DNA of 49,493 bases from a virus. This document shows, one piece after another, positions 1 through 49,493 of the stretch (position 1 is the stretch's first letter; each line of letters opens with the position of its first letter). The notes under the pieces are model-generated. The model saw only the letters and a program-made list of their open reading frames with translations, ran no database searches and had not been told where the DNA came from. The translations under genes were made by a program, and so were the position numbers. Location: the IMG/VR virus record IMGVR_UViG_3300035102_000435. The stretch is one strand, 5' to 3'.

Positions 1-127
1 AGTCAAAAGAGAAAAGAATTTTATCAGAAATATAAAGATCAGGAAGAAAGCGAAGGAAATTCAGGAGGTGGAGTACTTTGAAAAAATCAGAAATGGTTAA
101 AATGCTTAGTTTTCTTGACAATTATTA
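1..127. repeat. Terminal direct repeat, identical to 49367..49493 (circular or circularly permuted genome; likely assembly overlap)
   Basis: Read directly: the first 127 nt of the window match the last 127 nt exactly. Confidence 0.9.
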
Positions 128-34046: not shown

Positions 34047-34607
34047 ATGATGGCCCAGTTTAATAGTTTAACGATTACTCAAGATGGTTTAGAGCTGCAG
34101 TCAAAAGCTCAGACTGGTACTACTCTAAATTTTACTAGAGCAGCAGTTGGAGATGGAGAACTGCCGGATGGTACAAATTTAATTGATTTAAGTTCTTTGA
34201 TAAATGAAAAGGAGTCTCTTAACCTTACCGATTTATTTGTAGACGGCAGCGGTAATGCTAGAGCCAGAGCTACTGTTTCTAATCAAGGTTTAGCCACTGG
34301 TTTTTATATCAGAGAGATTGGTCTTTTCGCTAACGATCCAGACAAAGGCGAAATTTTATATTGCGTAGCAAACGCCGGGCAGTATGCTGACTTTTTGCCG
34401 GCTGGAACTGGATCAGATATTGTAGAATCTACTCTTGATCTGGTAACTATTGTAGGTAATGCAGAAAATGTTACCGCTCAAATAGACGAAAGTTTAACTT
34501 ATGTTACTGTAAAAGATATTAATGACAAATTAGATCTAGAGACTGCTGATCATCAATATAAATTAGTAGTTATTGACGGATCACTTGTTTTAGAGGAGGT
34601 ATTATAA
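34047..34607 (+). CDS. Putative tail fibre-associated protein
   Basis: 186-aa ORF between the baseplate genes and the DGR target gene. Confidence 0.35.
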   Translation: MMAQFNSLTITQDGLELQSKAQTGTTLNFTRAAVGDGELPDGTNLIDLSSLINEKESLNLTDLFVDGSGNARARATVSNQGLATGFYIREIGLFANDPDKGEILYCVANAGQYADFLPAGTGSDIVESTLDLVTIVGNAENVTAQIDESLTYVTVKDINDKLDLETADHQYKLVVIDGSLVLEEVL

Positions 34608-34925
34608 ATGAAAGGATTTCCTAAAAAATTAAAGACGAAAAAAGATTATGAAAATATCGTCGATGATTTCGGCTACACTCAAAAAGTAAAAGAAGCTTAT
34701 CAGGCATTGTTAGAAACTGATCAGCATTATGTATTTGATAAAGAACTGGCAACTGAGGATGAAAGGACTGGCCCGCTCCCTGATTATAAAGTAATGAAAG
34801 AAGATGAACAGGAAACCGAGACAGTCAGAATTGTTCAGTACAAATTAGTAGATAACCCTGACTCAAAGCTAAAAGAGTTAGGTTTTACAGAATTCGAAGT
34901 TCAAGAGGTGATTGACTTATGCTAA
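34608..34925 (+). CDS. Hypothetical protein (tail fibre region)
   Basis: 105-aa acidic ORF. Confidence 0.35.
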   Translation: MKGFPKKLKTKKDYENIVDDFGYTQKVKEAYQALLETDQHYVFDKELATEDERTGPLPDYKVMKEDEQETETVRIVQYKLVDNPDSKLKELGFTEFEVQEVIDLC

Positions 34926-35956
34926 GTGTAGTAGGAGTAGATAGTCCTGCTTTTTATAATGCAGAGGGAAATATAGAAAAGACAGCAGGAGTCCAGGGAG
35001 TAGACATCCCGGCCTTGGCATTAAGAATTAATAGGCAAAACTTAAAAGTTGAATCAGCATCAGCACTAACTGCCGCAGATAATGATGGCAGTTTTTCTAG
35101 TTTTGCGATGGGTACTGATTATTATATCTATGCCTGTCAACCAGCAAGTGGTATTGAGCCAGATTTTGTGCTTTCAGCTAACTCTACTTATCCAGATGCA
35201 ATACCTTCCGGAGTTACACCCAGCGTTGATAATACCAGGAAGATTGGTGGCTTCCATTATGGACGAGTAAGGAACAGTTCAACAGCTTCTGATGTATCAG
35301 AAAGTATTGTACCTAACTCAGTCTGGGACCTTGTTAATCGTCCAAAGTGCTCCCCTGAGGGGATGGCTAAGGTCGGCAACCTTTGGGTTGATATTTATCT
35401 AGCATCTGATGATGGTAACGGTGGTGTTGAATCAAAATATAATGCAACACCTATTACCGGTACTGAGGGCTTAAGCTGGTACAGTTTTGCAGAGAGGTTT
35501 GTGAAGGTAGATAAGCGGATGGCATCAATGTCAGAGTGGACAGCATTAGCTCAGGGCAGCCCTCAGGGTAATGATGGCGACAATGTCAATGCCTGGTCTG
35601 CTACAAGTAACAGTGGTAGAACATCTACTGGTTCTGTAACTAATGCTATCAGTAATTATAATATTGTCGATTGTGCCGGTAATGTTTGGGAATGGTTAGA
35701 TGAGGTTTCAATTAGACAGGATTCTACAACCTGGCAATGGTATGATCCAGCAACTGACTTTAATGAAACAATGGAGTCTGGATGGGACCAGCTTGGTGAT
35801 ATGTACTTACCTAATGCAGATGGTCTTTCAGCTTTCCGCGCCGGTGGCCATTGGGATGATGGTGTTCGCTGTGGTGCTCGCGCGTTGAGCCTGATCGACA
35901 AGCCTTGGTACGTGTACTCGACTTTCGGGTCTCGTGGTGTCTGTGATCCTCTGTAA
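34919..35956 (+). CDS. DGR target: tail fibre/receptor-binding protein with C-terminal C-type-lectin/FGE-like variable domain
   Basis: 345 aa; GNLWVDIY and GNVWEWLDE motifs typical of the FGE/CLec fold; the last ~38 codons form the variable repeat. Confidence 0.8.
   Translation: MLSVVGVDSPAFYNAEGNIEKTAGVQGVDIPALALRINRQNLKVESASALTAADNDGSFSSFAMGTDYYIYACQPASGIEPDFVLSANSTYPDAIPSGVTPSVDNTRKIGGFHYGRVRNSSTASDVSESIVPNSVWDLVNRPKCSPEGMAKVGNLWVDIYLASDDGNGGVESKYNATPITGTEGLSWYSFAERFVKVDKRMASMSEWTALAQGSPQGNDGDNVNAWSATSNSGRTSTGSVTNAISNYNIVDCAGNVWEWLDEVSIRQDSTTWQWYDPATDFNETMESGWDQLGDMYLPNADGLSAFRAGGHWDDGVRCGARALSLIDKPWYVYSTFGSRGVCDPL
35833..35945 (+). repeat. DGR variable repeat (VR)
   Basis: 113 bp aligned without gaps to 36359..36471; the 11 differences all fall at positions where the template has adenine. 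Confidence 0.85.
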
Positions 35957-36039
35957 TTCGTGATTTGATAATCTGTTTTTTTATTAAGGTGTGAATATTT
36001 ATCAAAAATCTAACAATACATCAAAAAGTATATGATCTA

Positions 36040-36336
36040 ATGGTTTGGTTTTTCCCGATCGTGGATAACTTTCCGAAGTATGAAAAATTTGTACTTTGCA
36101 CTCAAATAAAGAACTCTATATTAGATATTTCAAAAATCATTATTGAAGCAAATAAAACCAGAGGTAGTAAAGTGAGGTTTCTGCATCGGGTAGATGTCCG
36201 GCTTGAGCAATTAAGAATGCTAATCAGGTTTGCTCATGAAAGGCATTACTTAAACCATTCTAAATATGAAAATGTATCTAAAAAAGTTGATGAAATAGGA
36301 CGCATGCTTGGGGGTTGGATCAAGTCATGCGATTAA
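36040..36336 (+). CDS. avd: Accessory variability determinant (Avd-like four-helix-bundle protein)
   Basis: 98-aa ORF between VR and TR; the C-terminus (VDEIGRMLGGWIKS) resembles the Bordetella phage Avd C-terminus (EVGRILGSWIAR), from memory. Confidence 0.7.
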   Translation: MVWFFPIVDNFPKYEKFVLCTQIKNSILDISKIIIEANKTRGSKVRFLHRVDVRLEQLRMLIRFAHERHYLNHSKYENVSKKVDEIGRMLGGWIKSCD

Positions 36337-36358
36337 ATATTTGGGGTTAAGAGCGTTT

Positions 36359-36471
36359 TTTCCACGCCGGTGGCAATTGGAATGATGGTGTTCACTGTGG
36401 TGCTCGCGCGTTGAACCTGAACAACAAGCCTTGGAACGTGAACTCGAATATCGGGTCTCGTGGTGTCTGTG
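36359..36471 (+). repeat. DGR template repeat (TR)
   Basis: Non-coding copy of the VR; 22 adenines, many in AAC/AAT triplets in the VR-aligned frame, 11 of which differ in the VR. Confidence 0.85.
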
Positions 36472-36495
36472 CTCTTCATGCAAAAATCTTTCAGA

Positions 36496-36519
36496 CAGTA
36501 GTGGTTACGGCCACTACTG
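36496..36519 (+). other. Hairpin in the TR-RT spacer
   Basis: Perfect 9-bp inverted repeat CAGTAGTGG / CCACTACTG around a 6-nt loop, 25 nt downstream of the TR. Confidence 0.4.
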
Positions 36520-36888
36520 CAGTGTTTCTAGAAATGAGGAACAGGCTTTTAATCCCTGCTGAGATACTTTTTTAAAGTCAATCCAGCAAAAAATTTAGAT
36601 TGCTAGCCAGGCAGCAAGTATTGAAAAATAGAAAGTTGTCACAGTCAGCGACTGCCCGTTCTCATTTGAGCGGGCTTTTAATTTCCACCCATAAATAGAG
36701 AAAGTGGTGATAATATTCCAAAAAAATTTAAGAATCTATATCCAAAAATATACGATTTTGAGAACCTATACATTTCTTATGAAAATGCTAGAAAATCTAA
36801 ACGATATACTAACCAGGTCCTTAAATTTACTAATCAGTTAGAAAGCAATTTAATTAACATTCAAAATCAGCTCATCTGGAAAGAATAT

Positions 36889-37827
36889 TTGCCTGGCGAA
36901 TATCATCAGTTCTATGTCTATGAACCTAAGCAGCGGTTAGTTATGGCACTTCCTTTTGAGGATAGAGTGGTCCAGTGGGCTGTATATAGAAATTTAAATC
37001 CTATATTTGATAAAACTTTTTATGAACATAGCTGCGCCTGCCGGATTGGTAAAGGTACTCATTATGCAGCGGACCAGCTGCAGCACTGGATGAGAAAACT
37101 AGATAGAAGCCCAGGGGAAACTTATTATCTCAAAGCTGATGTTGCAAAATATTTTTACAGGATAGATCACAGAACTCTTTTCGAAATCATCAAAAGAAAG
37201 ATTAGCTGCAGAGATACTTTAGAGCTGATCTGGAAGATCATTAAAAAAGATGATGGTGAATTCGGAATACATCTCGGTGATCATTACTTTGAAAGAGATA
37301 AAATCAAAGGAATTGGAATCCCGATTGGTAACTTAACCAGTCAATTATTTGCTAATGTTTATCTCGACTTCATGGATAAATTTATAAAACATAATTTACG
37401 GGCTAAACACTACGTCAGATATATGGACGATTTTGTTATCCTGGGAAAATCAAAGAAAGAACTACATACAATCAGACAGGAGATAGAAATATTTCTTGCT
37501 GATTATTTAAAACTTGAACTTAACAACAAAACTACTGTTGATAATATCTGGAATGGAATAGATTTCTGCGGATATGTCACTTATCCACCATATAGAAAAT
37601 TGAGAAAAAGTACAAAAAGGAAACTCAAAAGACGGCTTAAATATCTTCAGAAAAAGTATTATAAAGAGGAGGTGGAGATCAATGAAATAAATGCCAGCGT
37701 TCAAAGTTATCTTGGAATATTAAAACATTGTGACAGCCATAATCTGACAATGTCGGTTATTGGCCAGTTAGAGGATGAAATACTTAATCAACTAGATTTA
37801 GAGGACGTTCGAGAACAAAGAAGTTGA
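36889..37827 (+). CDS. DGR reverse transcriptase (N-terminus likely extends upstream)
   Basis: YMDD catalytic motif (YVRYMDDFVILG) and the DGR-type IGNLTSQLFANVY motif; coordinates are from the first canonical start, but conserved N-terminal sequence continues in frame back to about 36700. Confidence 0.9.
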   Translation: MPGEYHQFYVYEPKQRLVMALPFEDRVVQWAVYRNLNPIFDKTFYEHSCACRIGKGTHYAADQLQHWMRKLDRSPGETYYLKADVAKYFYRIDHRTLFEIIKRKISCRDTLELIWKIIKKDDGEFGIHLGDHYFERDKIKGIGIPIGNLTSQLFANVYLDFMDKFIKHNLRAKHYVRYMDDFVILGKSKKELHTIRQEIEIFLADYLKLELNNKTTVDNIWNGIDFCGYVTYPPYRKLRKSTKRKLKRRLKYLQKKYYKEEVEINEINASVQSYLGILKHCDSHNLTMSVIGQLEDEILNQLDLEDVREQRS

Positions 37828-40652: not shown

Positions 40653-41342
40653 ATGGCTAGACAAATTTGTGTTTACGTTAGTGATTGGCAGTTTGAGAAA
40701 TTAAAAAAAGAAGATAACAAGTCAGAGGTTGCAAGAAAGGCATTTGATTTATATTATAAAAAGGAGGGAAAAGAAATGAAAATTATTGAAATTGTAGAAT
40801 TAACAAAAAGTGGTGTAAAAGTTAGCGATCAGGACAATCCAATGGCGGTTAGATATTTTAATGACAATGGAAATTTACCAGATGGAAATTTTGACGAAAA
40901 CCAAATAGCTGGCGAATGGGTGCATCTTGAAGGACAACACGCAAATTTTGAAATTTATGCTTATAGATCTATAGACAATAGTACACTCGTTCCAGCTGAT
41001 ATTTTCAAAGAAAAATTAATTAGTCAAATTGCAGGCGCCAGAATTACATTAACTAAAGCTGAATTAGAAGAAAAAGCAGAAATTAATGAAGTTTGGGAAG
41101 AAATAGCGACCGAAAGCATCCAGGCCACAAAAGAAAAAACTTTTTCAAAAGATGGTTGGAGAGATATCGAATTAACTGATGATTATCTATATCAGCTAGA
41201 ATTTGATGAGGGTGGCATAAGATATTATGAAGGTACAGAAGAAAGATATTTAGAGGAACCGGTCGGTGAAGAAGGATGGGATGAACCACAATGGTCTCCT
41301 AAAGAAATTAAAATGCTAATAGATGGGCTTGAAAATGAATAA
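40653..41342 (+). CDS. Hypothetical protein with N-terminal ribbon-helix-helix-like segment fused to an acidic domain
   Basis: 229-aa ORF; the N-terminal ~40 aa look CopG/Arc-like; an in-frame ATG at about 40775 with its own AAGGAGGG could give a separate product. Confidence 0.45.
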   Translation: MARQICVYVSDWQFEKLKKEDNKSEVARKAFDLYYKKEGKEMKIIEIVELTKSGVKVSDQDNPMAVRYFNDNGNLPDGNFDENQIAGEWVHLEGQHANFEIYAYRSIDNSTLVPADIFKEKLISQIAGARITLTKAELEEKAEINEVWEEIATESIQATKEKTFSKDGWRDIELTDDYLYQLEFDEGGIRYYEGTEERYLEEPVGEEGWDEPQWSPKEIKMLIDGLENE

Positions 41343-41916
41343 ATTAATTATACCTGGTCGTATTCTAGGAATATTCTGGACTACGGCCAGCTGGTCCTCT
41401 ACAGAAAAATCTATTCAAATAACTAATAAGGACTATGAAATTGTTAAAAAAGTGCAAAGTTATCTTTCTGAAATTAATTTTGAATATACTATATACCAAG
41501 GACCAACAGAAAATAAGCGCCCAGGTTATGAATATGATTATTACAGAATGAAAATATACAATAGTGATTTCATTGACCTGTTAAGAAATGAGTACAACTG
41601 GCGAGGGAGGAGAGAAAAAAAGAGATATTACCCTAATTTCGATTCTTATCAGCAGGTAGTTGAATTTTTGAGATATTATATTAATTCTCAGCACACTTCT
41701 GCTGAAATATCAGTTAATTGGGGCGACGGAAAGCATAAGCGATTAAAGGTATTTGTTAACAAAAATTTTGCAGATATTCTAAATGAAAGAATAAGCGATA
41801 TTGTAGGGGTTAATGAAAACAAAATATACAAACATTCTCAATCAGATGTATTAATGTATCTTTTTTATCAAAGCAAAAAAGATGTAGAATTAATATTAGA
41901 TTTTATAAATAAATAG
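41323..41916 (+). CDS. Hypothetical protein
   Basis: 197-aa ORF, Tyr/Arg-rich. Confidence 0.45.
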   Translation: MGLKMNKLIIPGRILGIFWTTASWSSTEKSIQITNKDYEIVKKVQSYLSEINFEYTIYQGPTENKRPGYEYDYYRMKIYNSDFIDLLRNEYNWRGRREKKRYYPNFDSYQQVVEFLRYYINSQHTSAEISVNWGDGKHKRLKVFVNKNFADILNERISDIVGVNENKIYKHSQSDVLMYLFYQSKKDVELILDFINK

Positions 41917-48505: not shown

Positions 48506-49447
48506 GTGGCTGGATACTTCAAACTCTATCGAGATATATTTGAAAGCAGCATATGGATGCAGCCAGTTGATTTAAGATTATTTATATACCTAATTGGACA
48601 GGCCCGCTATAAAGAAGAACCAAACACCAAATATAAAGCTTATGGAATCATTATTAAACGCGGGCAGTTCCTCAGGTCCTATAGAAAAATAAGAGATGAT
48701 CTTGAGTATTTTGAGAACAATGCTCTTAAGCATTATAGCCTTTCAGTAATCAAACGTTCGGTGGATAGATTGGTAGAACAAGAAAGAATAGAAATTGAAC
48801 AAACTAAGCTTGGAACACTCTTTACAGTCGTTAATTACCGGCAGTATCAGGATTATCAAGAAGATAACAAAGAGCTTGGAACGGACTTGGAACAGGGTTG
48901 GAACGGAGTTGGAACACCTGCGGAACAATACAGTAAGAAGGGGAAAGAAGGGGAAAGAAGGGAGAAAGAAAAACGTTCGGACTCTGAAAGTCCGAATTCT
49001 CTCTCTGAAAAAGAAGAATATGAACCTAAATATGGTGAAGAAAGTATTCCCTATAAAGCAGCTAAATATTTAAGGGGAAGAATTTTAGAAAATAATAAAA
49101 GGCAGCCGGTTCCTGATCCAAACCCTGAAGACTTAGAAGATTGGGCTATTGAATTAGAAAGATTAAATAGATTAGGCCCTAAAGGAAAAAGAAACGCTGG
49201 ATATAGCTGGGAAGAGATAAGAAATATAATGGACTGGTGCCAGGAAGATGAGTTCTGGAGTGGTAACATTTGTTCAGCTCCAACCTTCAGGGACCAAATA
49301 ACTAAATTAGAAAATCAAATGAGAAGAGATTTGAATAATAATAAGAAAAATAGTTCTAAAAAGAAAAGTCAAAAGAGAAAAGAATTTTATCAGAAATATA
49401 AAGATCAGGAAGAAAGCGAAGGAAATTCAGGAGGTGGAGTACTTTGA
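48506..49447 (+). CDS. Putative replication initiator/replisome organiser
   Basis: 313 aa; N-terminal DNA-binding-like domain, low-complexity linker whose DNA carries iteron-like repeats, C-terminal domain with YSWEEIRNIMDWCQ-type sequence. A two-domain initiator with the origin inside the gene is the lambda O / SPP1 G38P pattern. Confidence 0.55.
   Translation: MAGYFKLYRDIFESSIWMQPVDLRLFIYLIGQARYKEEPNTKYKAYGIIIKRGQFLRSYRKIRDDLEYFENNALKHYSLSVIKRSVDRLVEQERIEIEQTKLGTLFTVVNYRQYQDYQEDNKELGTDLEQGWNGVGTPAEQYSKKGKEGERREKEKRSDSESPNSLSEKEEYEPKYGEESIPYKAAKYLRGRILENNKRQPVPDPNPEDLEDWAIELERLNRLGPKGKRNAGYSWEEIRNIMDWCQEDEFWSGNICSAPTFRDQITKLENQMRRDLNNNKKNSSKKKSQKRKEFYQKYKDQEESEGNSGGGVL
48876..48926 (+). repeat. 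Iteron array (candidate replication origin)
   Basis: TTGGAAC at 48876, 48887, 48898 and 48909 (11-bp spacing) plus GGAAC at 48922; followed by GAAGGGGAAA tandem repeats (48938..48968) and an 8-bp-stem inverted repeat (48976..48996). Confidence 0.55.
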
Positions 49448-49493
49448 AAAAATCAGAAATGGTTAAAATGCTTAGTTTTCTTGACAATTATTA
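49367..49493. repeat. Terminal direct repeat, identical to 1..127
   Basis: Exact 127-nt identity with the window start. Confidence 0.9.

What the first reader, a model, noticed from the sequence alone, without database searches (positions are those of the whole stretch)
35833..36471. VR and TR differ only at template adenines (11 of 22)
Ungapped alignment of VR 35833..35945 against TR 36359..36471 gives 11 mismatches, every one at a TR adenine (VR positions 35838, 35849, 35855, 35868, 35889, 35895, 35897, 35909, 35915, 35922, 35924); A becomes G, C or T. Most fall in TR AAC/AAT triplets. The shared 3' 21 nt are identical and homology breaks at a non-adenine mismatch (35946), consistent with an IMH-like boundary. 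This is the mutational signature of adenine-specific mutagenic retrohoming and shows the element has been active.
Basis: seen in the sequence. Interest (0 to 1): 0.9.

Follow-up and report, generated by a model that had tools for sequence, protein, structure and literature searches.

The report
Active phage tail-fibre diversity-generating retroelement
The two 113-base repeats are the template and variable regions of a classic Bordetella-phage-type diversity-generating retroelement that rewrites the tip of a phage receptor-binding protein. Sister genomes from other samples show it has been active recently, so the finding is real but is an ordinary member of a well-known system.

Summary
VR 35833-35945 and TR 36359-36471 align without gaps, with 11 mismatches, all at TR adenines (22 A in 113 nt; P = 1.2e-9). 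All 22 TR adenines sit at codon positions 1 or 2, and all 11 changes alter the amino acid.

The context is a complete BPP-1-type DGR cassette in a circular ~49.4 kb temperate myovirus genome:
- an Mtd-like target (34919-35956);
- Avd (36040-36336);
- TR;
- a structured spacer RNA (36472-36648, Rfam RT-14-like);
- an RT (36715-37827, best solved-structure match bRT, E 2e-53).

Eight related contigs carry an essentially invariant TR and eight different VRs; 96 of 98 VR/TR mismatches are at TR adenines. One sister contig differs from the window at 15 of 21,038 nt, and 14 of those are adenine-templated VR positions.

The variable codons align column for column with the receptor-binding residues of Mtd. 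The AlphaFold model (pLDDT 91.8) matches the Mtd crystal structures (TM 0.74).

Differences from BPP-1 are small. There is no GC-rich hairpin after VR. The RT appears to start at a non-canonical ATT, just after a terminator-like hairpin.

The parts
34047..34607 (+). Tail-collar fibre N-terminal domain protein (186 aa), upstream partner of the variable protein
   Evidence: Pfam PF12571 Phage_tail_fib, E 1.9e-10. PHROG 7037 tail fiber protein, E 1.7e-52.
34608..34925 (+). Conserved 105-aa ORF of unknown function that overlaps the start of the target gene
   Evidence: No Pfam or PHROG match. An ORF of the same size sits in the same position in L001-L006, L015 and L005.
34919..35956 (+). DGR target gene: Mtd-like receptor-binding tail protein (345 aa) with VR at its 3' end
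   Evidence: Pfam mtd_2nd, 66.6 bits against a cut-off of 24.6. Matches PDB Mtd 1yu0, E 8e-16. AlphaFold2 model pLDDT 91.8; best Foldseek hits are Mtd 1yu0/1yu2, E 8e-21, TM 0.74-0.75.
35833..35945 (+). Variable region (VR). Adenine-templated variable tract 35838-35924; invariant 3' block 35925-35945.
   Evidence: 11 of 11 mismatches at TR A; eight different VRs in eight related contigs.
35946..35956 (+). IMH-distal segment and target stop codon. Homology to TR decays here (4 of the first 6 nt identical).
   Evidence: repeat family D1 extends to 35951. The break is at the same codon as in BPP-1 IMH/IMH*.
36040..36336 (+). avd, the accessory variability determinant (98 aa)
   Evidence: NCBIfam NF033474 DivGenRetAVD, 108 bits against a cut-off of 80. 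Pfam bAvd, E 1e-29. PHROG 3206 'Avd protein of DGR'.
36359..36471 (+). Template region (TR), non-coding, 22 adenines
   Evidence: It is 100% identical in 7 of 8 related contigs while flanking genes are 87-98% identical.
36472..36648 (+). Spacer (Sp) part of the DGR RNA, an RT-14-class structured RNA. It includes a 10-bp hairpin with a UACG tetraloop at 36496-36519, a candidate Avd-binding stem-loop.
   Evidence: Rfam RF02921: 33.9 bits, E 0.006-0.012, below the gathering score of 48.1. Homologous spacers pass the threshold: L015 50.0 bits, BalMu-1 70.4 bits, and 11 of 20 related loci. Covariation in 21 of 26 pairs. Hairpin found.
36654..36685 (+). Terminator-like hairpin (8 bp, 6 GC) followed by TTTTAATTTC, between the spacer RNA and the RT start
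   Evidence: Retained in L015 and L017 with wobble and compensatory changes.
36700..36717 (+). Shine-Dalgarno-like GAAAGTGGTGAT plus the inferred non-canonical ATT start codon (36715-36717) of the RT
   Evidence: see full report.
36715..37827 (+). DGR reverse transcriptase (370 aa if started at ATT; the mechanical ORF list gives 36889-37827 from a TTG)
   Evidence: Best PDB match is bRT 8ub7_A, E 2e-53, aligned from residue 3 to residue 3. Pfam RVT_1. IGNLTSQ and YMDD motifs and the bRT R74/I181 equivalents are conserved.

Best explanation
This is a functional BPP-1-type diversity-generating retroelement in the tail-fibre module of a temperate contractile-tailed phage. Inferred from the BPP-1 mechanism: an RNA spanning the avd 3' end, TR (36359-36471) and the structured spacer (36472-36648) is bound by an Avd-RT complex. 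The RT self-primes from the spacer and copies TR into cDNA, inserting random nucleotides opposite template adenines. The cDNA then replaces VR (35833-~35930) in the 3' end of the Mtd-like gene, while the invariant block ending in GTCTGTG and the diverged IMH fix the 3' junction and its direction. Shown here: the 22 TR adenines lie only at first and second codon positions of 13 codons, mostly AAY. That allows about 8.5e12 protein variants of the receptor-binding face, and only one codon can become a stop. Comparative data show that TR-to-VR transfer with adenine mutagenesis has occurred repeatedly and recently in this lineage. Inferred from homology: a role in host-range (tropism) switching.
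For: Observation: (11/11 mismatches at A, P 1.2e-9; no A at codon position 3; all changes non-synonymous).
Components: Avd is above the NCBIfam equivalog cut-off. The RT's best solved relative is bRT, E 2e-53, with IGxxxSQ, YMDD and the R74/I181 equivalents (roles of these residues from PMC7826257). The target is Mtd-like by Pfam, by PDB sequence and by fold.
Variable codons: 311, 313, 314, 317, 324, 326, 327, 331, 333, 335 and 336 align column for column with the adenine-encoded Mtd codons 344-369. Those residues form the Mtd receptor-binding site (PMC2408619).
Activity: eight contigs carry eight VRs and one TR, with 96/98 mismatches at A and 21/22 A positions substituted somewhere. Window and L001 differ at 15 of 21,038 nt, 14 of them at adenine-templated VR sites. 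The C>T change in the TR of L002 is copied in its VR.
Spacer RNA: RT-14 class with covariation, and a 10-bp UACG-capped hairpin 24 nt after TR. This matches the Avd-binding stem-loops described for 207 of 278 Avd-containing DGRs (bioRxiv 10.1101/2023.10.23.563531).
More distant relatives (L004, L015, L017, BalMu-1) also show A-specific VR/TR differences.
Against: No experiment or read-level population data were available, so retrohoming is inferred from comparative sequence only. There is no canonical start codon in front of the conserved RT N-terminus, so RT expression rests on an inferred ATT start. No GC-rich hairpin follows VR, although one is needed for efficient homing in BPP-1 (PMC3240598); only 34% of surveyed DGRs have one (PMC5758913). 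The window's spacer is below Rfam's RT-14 gathering score (33.9 against 48.1 bits). The assembled VR could be a consensus of co-existing variants.
Confidence: 0.95

Rival explanations
1. Relic DGR. The adenine signature records past activity, but the element is now silent because the RT lost its canonical start codon and the target lacks the post-VR hairpin.
For: No ATG, GTG or TTG precedes the conserved RT N-terminus. No hairpin of 5 bp or more lies within 100 nt after VR.
Against: The window and L001 differ almost only at adenine-templated VR sites (14 of 15 differences in 21 kb), so VR has turned over very recently. The same ATT/SD arrangement is present in all eight contigs, each with a different VR. 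The 58 codons upstream of the first canonical start evolve under purifying selection: 29 of 44 differences are at third codon positions, with 0-6 amino-acid changes. TR and spacer are more conserved than the protein genes. All catalytic motifs are intact.
Confidence: 0.04
2. An ordinary tandem-like duplication that has diverged by normal mutation or gene conversion, with no retroelement involved.
For: Two 113-nt direct repeats 526 nt apart could in principle arise by duplication.
Against: All 11 differences, and 96 of 98 across eight loci, fall on the 19% of positions that are A in one particular copy, and they go to all three other bases. One copy is invariant and the other hypervariable. The repeats flank an Avd gene and precede a DGR-clade RT.
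Confidence: 0.005
3. The VR sequence in the window is an assembly consensus or chimera of several co-existing VR variants, not the sequence of any single phage genome. The element is still a DGR.
For: The window is a metagenome-style circular assembly with a 127-nt terminal overlap. DGR target regions are typically polymorphic in populations (PMC8144416).
Against: The assembler produced one uninterrupted contig through VR. Each of the eight assemblies yields an in-frame VR without stops. This rival does not change the adenine-specific pattern or the interpretation.
Confidence: 0.15

Closest known systems
Bordetella phage BPP-1 DGR (mtd-avd-TR-brt; AY029185)
   Same: Same gene order and the same four parts. 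The RT is the closest solved relative (bRT 8ub7, E 2e-53). The target has the whole three-domain Mtd fold (TM 0.74). Adenine-encoded codons sit in the same alignment columns. TR and VR share the GTCTGTG end, with the homology break at the same ...GVC|D codon. Diversity is about 1e13 variants. The element sits at the tail-fibre end of the structural module.
   Different: About 23% (target) and 36% (RT) amino-acid identity. The IMH block is less GC-rich. The 8-bp GCGGGGCC/GAAA hairpin after VR is absent. The spacer RNA belongs to Rfam RT-14 rather than RT-10, which is the BPP-1 spacer (PMC5737381). There is an extra terminator-like hairpin and an inferred ATT start before the RT. The host phage is a contractile-tailed phage of a low-GC, probably Bacillota host, not a podovirus of Bordetella.
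Bacillus phage BalMu-1 DGR (NC_030945, gp50-gp53)
   Same: Closest isolated-phage relative of the RT (51.6% identity). Identical module order: tail, CLec target, Avd, TR, RT-14 RNA, RT, holin, endolysin. A-specific VR/TR differences (10 of 11).
   Different: The target is annotated as SUMF1/EgtB/PvdO family and is only 27% identical to the window's. The RT has an annotated start at the equivalent N-terminus. Its RT-14 match is well above threshold, at 70.4 bits.
Rfam RF02921 RT-14 RNA motif (Weinberg et al. 2017, PMC5737381)
   Same: A full-length (1-144) match starts at the first base after TR. Homologous spacers in L015, BalMu-1 and 11 of 20 related RT loci pass the gathering score, directly upstream of the RT. 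Covariation supports the helices.
   Different: The window's own score (33.9 bits) is below the gathering score (48.1). It has an 18-nt insertion and several non-canonical pairs in the outer helix. Rfam lists the motif as RT-associated with no assigned function.
Other CLec-fold DGR variable proteins (TvpA 2y3c, TaqVP 5vf4)
   Same: C-terminal C-type-lectin/FGE-like fold displaying the variable residues.
   Different: Much weaker structural matches (TM 0.27-0.37). They lack the Mtd N-terminal and middle domains and are not phage tail proteins.

Membership tests
Diversity-generating retroelement (DGR) | TR/VR repeat pair whose differences are (almost) exclusively at TR adenines | tested here: met
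   11/11 in the window. 96/98 over eight related contigs.
Diversity-generating retroelement (DGR) | Reverse transcriptase of the DGR clade ([I/L/V]GxxxSQ in motif 4, YxDD catalytic motif) | tested here: met
   Best PDB match is bRT, E 2e-53. IGNLTSQ and YMDD are invariant in alignment A2, and the bRT R74 and I181 equivalents are conserved. Group II intron and retron NCBIfam models score far below their cut-offs (125.8 against 300; 45.4 against 235).
Diversity-generating retroelement (DGR) | VR lies within a protein-coding target gene; TR is a non-coding copy next to the RT | tested here: met
   VR encodes residues 306-342 of the 345-aa target. TR lies between avd and the RT.
Diversity-generating retroelement (DGR) | Accessory protein Avd (present in most DGRs, not all) | tested here: met
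   NF033474 DivGenRetAVD equivalog, 108 bits against a cut-off of 80.
Diversity-generating retroelement (DGR) | IMH/IMH*: an identical (usually GC-rich) block after the last variable A, followed by imperfect TR/VR similarity | tested here: met
   21 identical nt (GGGTCTCGTGGTGTCTGTG...), then 4 of 6 identical, then none. Same break point as BPP-1. Function not testable here.
Diversity-generating retroelement (DGR) | Unidirectional TR-to-VR information transfer (retrohoming) | tested here: met
   Comparative only. TR is invariant and VR hypervariable. A non-adenine TR mutation in L002 is mirrored in its VR. 14 of 15 differences between near-identical genomes are at adenine-templated VR sites. 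No experiment.
BPP-1-type DGR target site | GC-rich inverted repeat (hairpin/cruciform) within ~24 bp downstream of VR/IMH | tested here: not met
   No stem of 5 bp or more in 35925-36045, while the same script recovers the BPP-1 8-bp hairpin. DNA fold z = +0.26. Found in only 34% of DGRs (PMC5758913), so it does not define DGRs as a whole.
Mtd (major tropism determinant) family | Mtd middle domain plus C-terminal CLec fold, with variable residues on the receptor-binding face | tested here: met
   PF21916, 66.6 bits against 24.6. Foldseek 1yu0/1yu2, E 8e-21, TM 0.74-0.75 over the full length. Variable codons coincide with those of Mtd. Trimer formation and receptor binding were not tested.
Rfam RF02921 RT-14 RNA | Score at or above the curated gathering threshold (48.1 bits) | tested here: not met
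   Window 33.9 bits, E 0.006. The positional homologues L015 (50.0) and BalMu-1 (70.4) pass. Covariation in 21 of 26 pairs of a joint alignment. It works like RT-14, but membership by the curated score is not met.
Group II intron / retron reverse transcriptases | Curated family score; intron RNA domains or msr/msd | tested here: not met
   TIGR04416 scores 125.8 against 300; retron St85 scores 45.4 against 235. No Rfam intron or retron RNA in the window.

The most novel reading that the evidence does not exclude
In this phage lineage the DGR reverse transcriptase is deliberately throttled. It would be translated from a non-canonical AUU codon (AUC in a sister Halanaerobiales lineage, UUG in another), placed 7 nt after a strong GGUGAU Shine-Dalgarno sequence. 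It lies directly downstream of a terminator-like hairpin that may end most TR-spacer transcripts. Mutagenic retrohoming would then be kept rare by built-in transcriptional and translational attenuation, a regulatory layer I found no report of in the DGR papers I read.
Probability: 0.4. Interest if true: 0.4.

Novelty: new member of a known kind. Interest (0 to 1): 0.3.

Why it matters
The finding adds a well-documented natural example of a DGR caught in action. Nearly clonal phage genomes from different samples differ essentially only at adenine-templated positions of the receptor-binding protein. This lineage would suit a study of tropism switching in an uncultured, probably halophilic anaerobic Bacillota host. 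It also ties the orphan Rfam motif RT-14 to a concrete role, as the TR-proximal spacer of Avd-containing phage DGRs. And it points to a testable control on RT expression: a weak start codon plus an upstream terminator-like hairpin. None of this changes how DGRs are understood.

Tried and rejected
- A megablast of the cassette against INPHARED phages found nothing. Only a protein-level search found relatives.
- An exact TR 36-mer scan of GTDB genomes found nothing. The host could only be approximated through an 81%-identical RT on a 7-kb contig binned to a Halanaerobiales MAG, which is weak evidence.
- I looked for further (remote) VRs in the window; only the one VR exists.
- I looked for a BPP-1-like hairpin after VR; none was found.
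- I considered a GTG start in the neighbouring frame with a -1 frameshift or transcriptional slippage on the A7 run (36720-36726) as the RT start. I rejected it because L002 and L017 have stop codons in that frame right after the GTG, yet keep the in-frame ATT/ATC.
- I considered the TTG at 36889 as the RT start. I rejected it because L002 and L004 lack that TTG, and because the 58 upstream codons align to bRT residues 3-60 and are under purifying selection.
- I tried to use VR position 35939 (G>A in L003 and L006 only) to map the 3' cDNA junction. The result is only suggestive, because those two contigs share the whole downstream block and differ upstream, which points to recombination.
- No tRNA gene and no Rfam family at gathering score is present in the window.
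Full report
**1. The observation**

- VR 35833-35945 and TR 36359-36471 align without gaps.
- They differ at 11 positions, and every one is an adenine in TR.
- The replacements are G x5, T x4 and C x2.

TR has 22 A in 113 nt. The chance that 11 randomly placed mismatches all hit A is 1.2e-9. The last 21 nt are identical. The next base (35946 A against 36472 C) is a non-adenine mismatch, after which similarity decays (4 of 6 identical, then none).

Three further points came out:
- In the reading frame of the ORF that contains VR, all 22 TR adenines are at codon positions 1 or 2 and none is at position 3.
- All 11 changes are non-synonymous, and 8 of the 11 lie in AAC or AAT codons.
- The repeats are GC-rich islands (TR 53%, VR 59%) in a 34% GC sequence.

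A blastn search of TR against the whole window finds only these two copies, so there is a single target.

**2. What surrounds it**

The + strand carries a contractile-tail phage structural module:
- terminase gpA, lambda-type portal, ClpP-like protease and capsid protein E;
- sheath, tube and tape measure;
- baseplate J, a P2 gpI-like protein and a tail-collar fibre N-terminal protein.

The cassette follows:

| Coordinates | Feature | Evidence |
|---|---|---|
| 34608-34925 | conserved 105-aa ORF, function unknown | |
| 34919-35956 | 345-aa VR-bearing gene | Pfam "Mtd second domain", 66.6 bits against cut-off 24.6 |
| 36040-36336 | 98-aa Avd | NCBIfam equivalog DivGenRetAVD, 108 bits against cut-off 80 |
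| 36359-36471 | TR | |
| 36472-36714 | 243-nt spacer | |
| to 37827 | reverse transcriptase | |

A holin and an amidase come next. Further on lie a serine recombinase and an S24 repressor on the opposite strand.

The first and last 127 nt of the window are identical. The window is therefore a circularly closed assembly of a ~49.4 kb temperate phage genome.

**3. The proteins**

Reverse transcriptase:
- Its best match among solved structures is the BPP-1 DGR enzyme bRT (8ub7_A, E 2e-53), aligned from residue 3 to residue 3.
- The DGR hallmark IGNLTSQ and the catalytic YMDD are present.
- So are the counterparts of bRT R74 and I181, which promote adenine mutagenesis (PMC7826257).
- Group II intron and retron models score far below their cut-offs.

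Target:
- It matches Mtd by sequence (1yu0, E 8e-16, residues 53-345 against 94-378).
- An AlphaFold2 model built from 60 homologues is confident (pLDDT 91.8, pTM 0.90).
- Its best structural matches are the five Mtd crystal forms (E ~1e-20, TM 0.70-0.75, full length). TaqVP, FGE enzymes and TvpA follow far behind.

To test the "ligand-binding face" prediction, I took TR and VR1 from the annotated BPP-1 record. I listed the Mtd codons that contain a TR adenine and aligned Mtd to the window's protein.
- The window's adenine-containing codons 311, 313, 314, 317, 324, 326, 327, 331, 333, 335 and 336 fall in the same columns as Mtd codons 344, 346, 347, 350, 357, 359, 360, 364, 366, 368 and 369.
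- The homology break between TR and VR is also at the same place in both elements: after GTCTGTG, at the codon following ...GVC.

The theoretical repertoire is 4^22 = 1.8e13 DNA sequences and 8.5e12 protein sequences. Only one codon (AAG, residue 328) can become a stop.

**4. Evidence that it works**

A protein search returned targets 93-97% identical whose differences cluster in the last 40 residues. I fetched their contigs. Exact-match scans for a 36-nt TR core added three more from IMG/VR and JGI metagenomes. Eight distinct contigs result.
- **TR:** identical in seven contigs. The eighth (L002) has a single C>T change, and that same T is present in L002's own VR. This is a non-adenine marker copied from TR to VR.
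- **VR:** all eight differ. Of 98 VR/TR mismatches, 96 are at TR adenines, and 21 of the 22 adenine positions are substituted in at least one contig.
- **The two exceptions:** both are the same G>A at 35939-equivalent in L003 and L006. It lies in the 3' invariant block and persists although the two VRs differ at 13 adenine-templated sites. This suggests the position is 3' of the segment replaced by cDNA. The two contigs also look recombinant upstream of VR, so the inference is weak.
- **The strongest single result:** L001, from another JGI sample, is colinear with window 24919-45956. It differs at 15 of 21,038 positions, and 14 of these are adenine-templated VR positions.
- **Conservation:** in contigs that are 87-94% identical over the protein genes, TR is 99-100% and the spacer 95-98% identical, as expected for functional RNA.
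- **More distant relatives:** L004, L015, L017 and phage BalMu-1 have their own TRs and show the same adenine-specific pattern.

**5. The RNA part**

The region that begins at the first base after TR (36472-36648) gives a full-length but sub-threshold match to Rfam RT-14 (33.9 bits, gathering score 48.1, E 0.006-0.012).
- The positionally homologous spacers of L015 (50.0 bits) and BalMu-1 (70.4 bits) pass the threshold.
- So do those of 11 of 20 further loci that encode related RTs, in each case ending just before the RT gene.
- A joint alignment gives a consensus structure in which 21 of 26 pairs show compensatory changes.

RT-1 to RT-19 were described as RT-associated motifs. RT-10 was identified as the BPP-1 TR-to-RT spacer, and the authors speculated that others serve other DGRs (PMC5737381). 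RT-14 appears to be such a case.

The window's spacer contains a 10-bp hairpin capped by a UACG tetraloop, 24 nt after TR (36496-36519). This fits the "about 9 bp, tetraloop-capped" Avd-binding stem-loops reported just downstream of TR in 207 of 278 Avd-containing DGRs (bioRxiv 10.1101/2023.10.23.563531).

In BPP-1 this downstream RNA binds Avd, primes cDNA synthesis from Sp A56 at TR G117, and confers processivity (PMC6182149; the same bioRxiv paper). By homology, the first templated base here would be the penultimate G of GTCTGTG (36469). That is an inference, not a result.

**6. Differences from the prototype**

(a) No GC-rich inverted repeat follows VR. A script that recovers the BPP-1 GCGGGGCC-GAAA-GGCCCCGC hairpin finds no stem of 5 bp or more in 35925-36045. 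The DNA fold is no better than shuffled sequence (z +0.26). The hairpin is needed for efficient homing in BPP-1 (PMC3240598) but was found in only 34% of 372 DGRs (PMC5758913), so its absence is not unusual.

(b) The RT has no canonical start codon where one is expected.
- The reading frame is open from 36682 and encodes IPKKFKNLYPKIYDFENLY..., which aligns with the N-terminus of bRT and of all homologues.
- The first ATG, GTG or TTG in frame is the TTG at 36889, 58 codons further on.
- An in-frame ATT at 36715 lies 7 nt after GGTGAT within AGAAAGTGGTGAT, which is close to the full anti-SD complement AGAAAGGAGGTGAT (my own knowledge of the 16S 3' end).
- This ATT is conserved in all relatives examined. 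In L002 a TGA lies two codons upstream of it. L002 and L004 lack the downstream TTG.
- Differences among relatives in the 58 codons fall mostly at third positions (29 of 44), with 0-6 amino-acid changes.
- The sister lineages use a TTG directly after a TGA (L015) or have ATC at this position with no canonical alternative (L017).
- A GTG in the neighbouring frame combined with slippage on the A7 run is excluded by stop codons in L002 and L017.
- I therefore infer initiation at ATT. Public gene calls truncate this RT to 294-312 aa.

(c) A terminator-like hairpin with a T-run (36654-36685) lies between the RT-14 RNA and the RT start. It is kept in L015 and L017. In the other RT-14 loci the RNA ends 10-40 nt before the RT gene.

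Together, (b) and (c) suggest attenuated RT expression. This is speculation.

**7. Host and relatives**

There is no nucleotide-level match in INPHARED. The closest isolated phage by RT is Bacillus phage BalMu-1 (51.6%), which has the same module order. The closest RT in GTDB species genomes (81%) is on a 7-kb contig of a Halanaerobiales MAG; the other hits listed are mostly Bacillota. The same DGR-plus-lysis module (RT 79%) sits in a siphovirus-type prophage on a 614-kb contig, so the module moves between phage types.

**8. Verdict**

The element meets all defining features of a DGR that can be tested in silico, and it is a close functional analogue of the BPP-1 Mtd system. DGRs of this architecture are known, and large surveys of metagenomes and IMG/VR have already catalogued tens of thousands (PMC8144416, PMC5758913). 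It is therefore a new member of a known kind.

The side observations are modestly interesting leads: the ATT-initiated RT behind a terminator-like hairpin, and RT-14 as the DGR spacer RNA.

Noticed in passing
window 36682-36889: The RT's conserved N-terminal 58 codons precede any ATG, GTG or TTG. A conserved in-frame ATT (36715) lies 7 nt after a GGTGAT Shine-Dalgarno sequence. A sister lineage (L017) has ATC at this position and L015 has TTG. Public gene calls truncate the protein to 294-312 aa.
   Followed up: partly
window 36654-36685: A terminator-like hairpin (GCCCGTTC...GAGCGGGC plus TTTTAATTT) lies between the spacer RNA and the RT start. It is conserved in L015 and L017 but absent from other RT-14 loci. 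It might end the DGR RNA or attenuate RT transcription.
   Followed up: partly
window 1-127 and 49367-49493: An exact 127-nt terminal overlap. The window is a circularly closed assembly, so a complete ~49,366-bp phage genome (127 is a typical assembler k-mer).
   Followed up: partly
window 35900 / 36426 (codon 328, AAG): This is the only TR codon that adenine mutagenesis can turn into a stop (TAG). Its first A is the single TR adenine never substituted in the eight VRs; residue 328 is only K or R.
   Followed up: no
L039 1961-2989 (Bacterium 1XD42-1, RAZJ01000017.1): Four tandem RT-14 RNA copies, about 290 nt apart, lie upstream of one RT gene. This may be a DGR with four TR-spacer units.
   Followed up: no
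L015 1-13232 (ERZ1091679 NODE_2, 614 kb contig): The same Mtd-like/Avd/TR/RT/holin/amidase module (RT 79% identical) sits behind a siphovirus-type tail module in an integrated prophage. The DGR-lysis block is mosaic between tail types.
   Followed up: partly
L005 6001-8174 (JGI 3300035534): A 70%-identical Mtd homologue with a VR-like 3' end is followed by a 123-aa ORF and a GH108 lysin instead of Avd/TR/RT. The DGR may be lost or located elsewhere; the contig ends 1.1 kb further on.
   Followed up: no
L003 6515-9028 vs L006 1003-3516: The two contigs differ at 34 of 400 nt upstream of VR but at 1 of 2000 nt downstream, and at 13 adenine-templated VR sites. This suggests a recombination breakpoint at or near VR.
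   Followed up: no
window 34608-34925: A 105-aa ORF with no family match overlaps the start of the target gene. It is conserved in size and position in all relatives, including distant ones (L005, L015). It may be a fibre adaptor or chaperone.
   Followed up: no
window 36411-36575 (+) and 36325-36483 (-): Mechanical ORFs of 52-54 aa overlap TR and are almost certainly not genes. BalMu-1's annotated 'hypothetical protein' gp52 lies in the equivalent TR/spacer region and is probably a mis-call too.
   Followed up: no
window 41323-41916: The identical ORF in L001 carries a weak LAGLIDADG_3 hit in the precomputed Pfam data. It may be a homing-endonuclease-like gene in the region between the lysis genes and the recombinase gene.
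   Followed up: no
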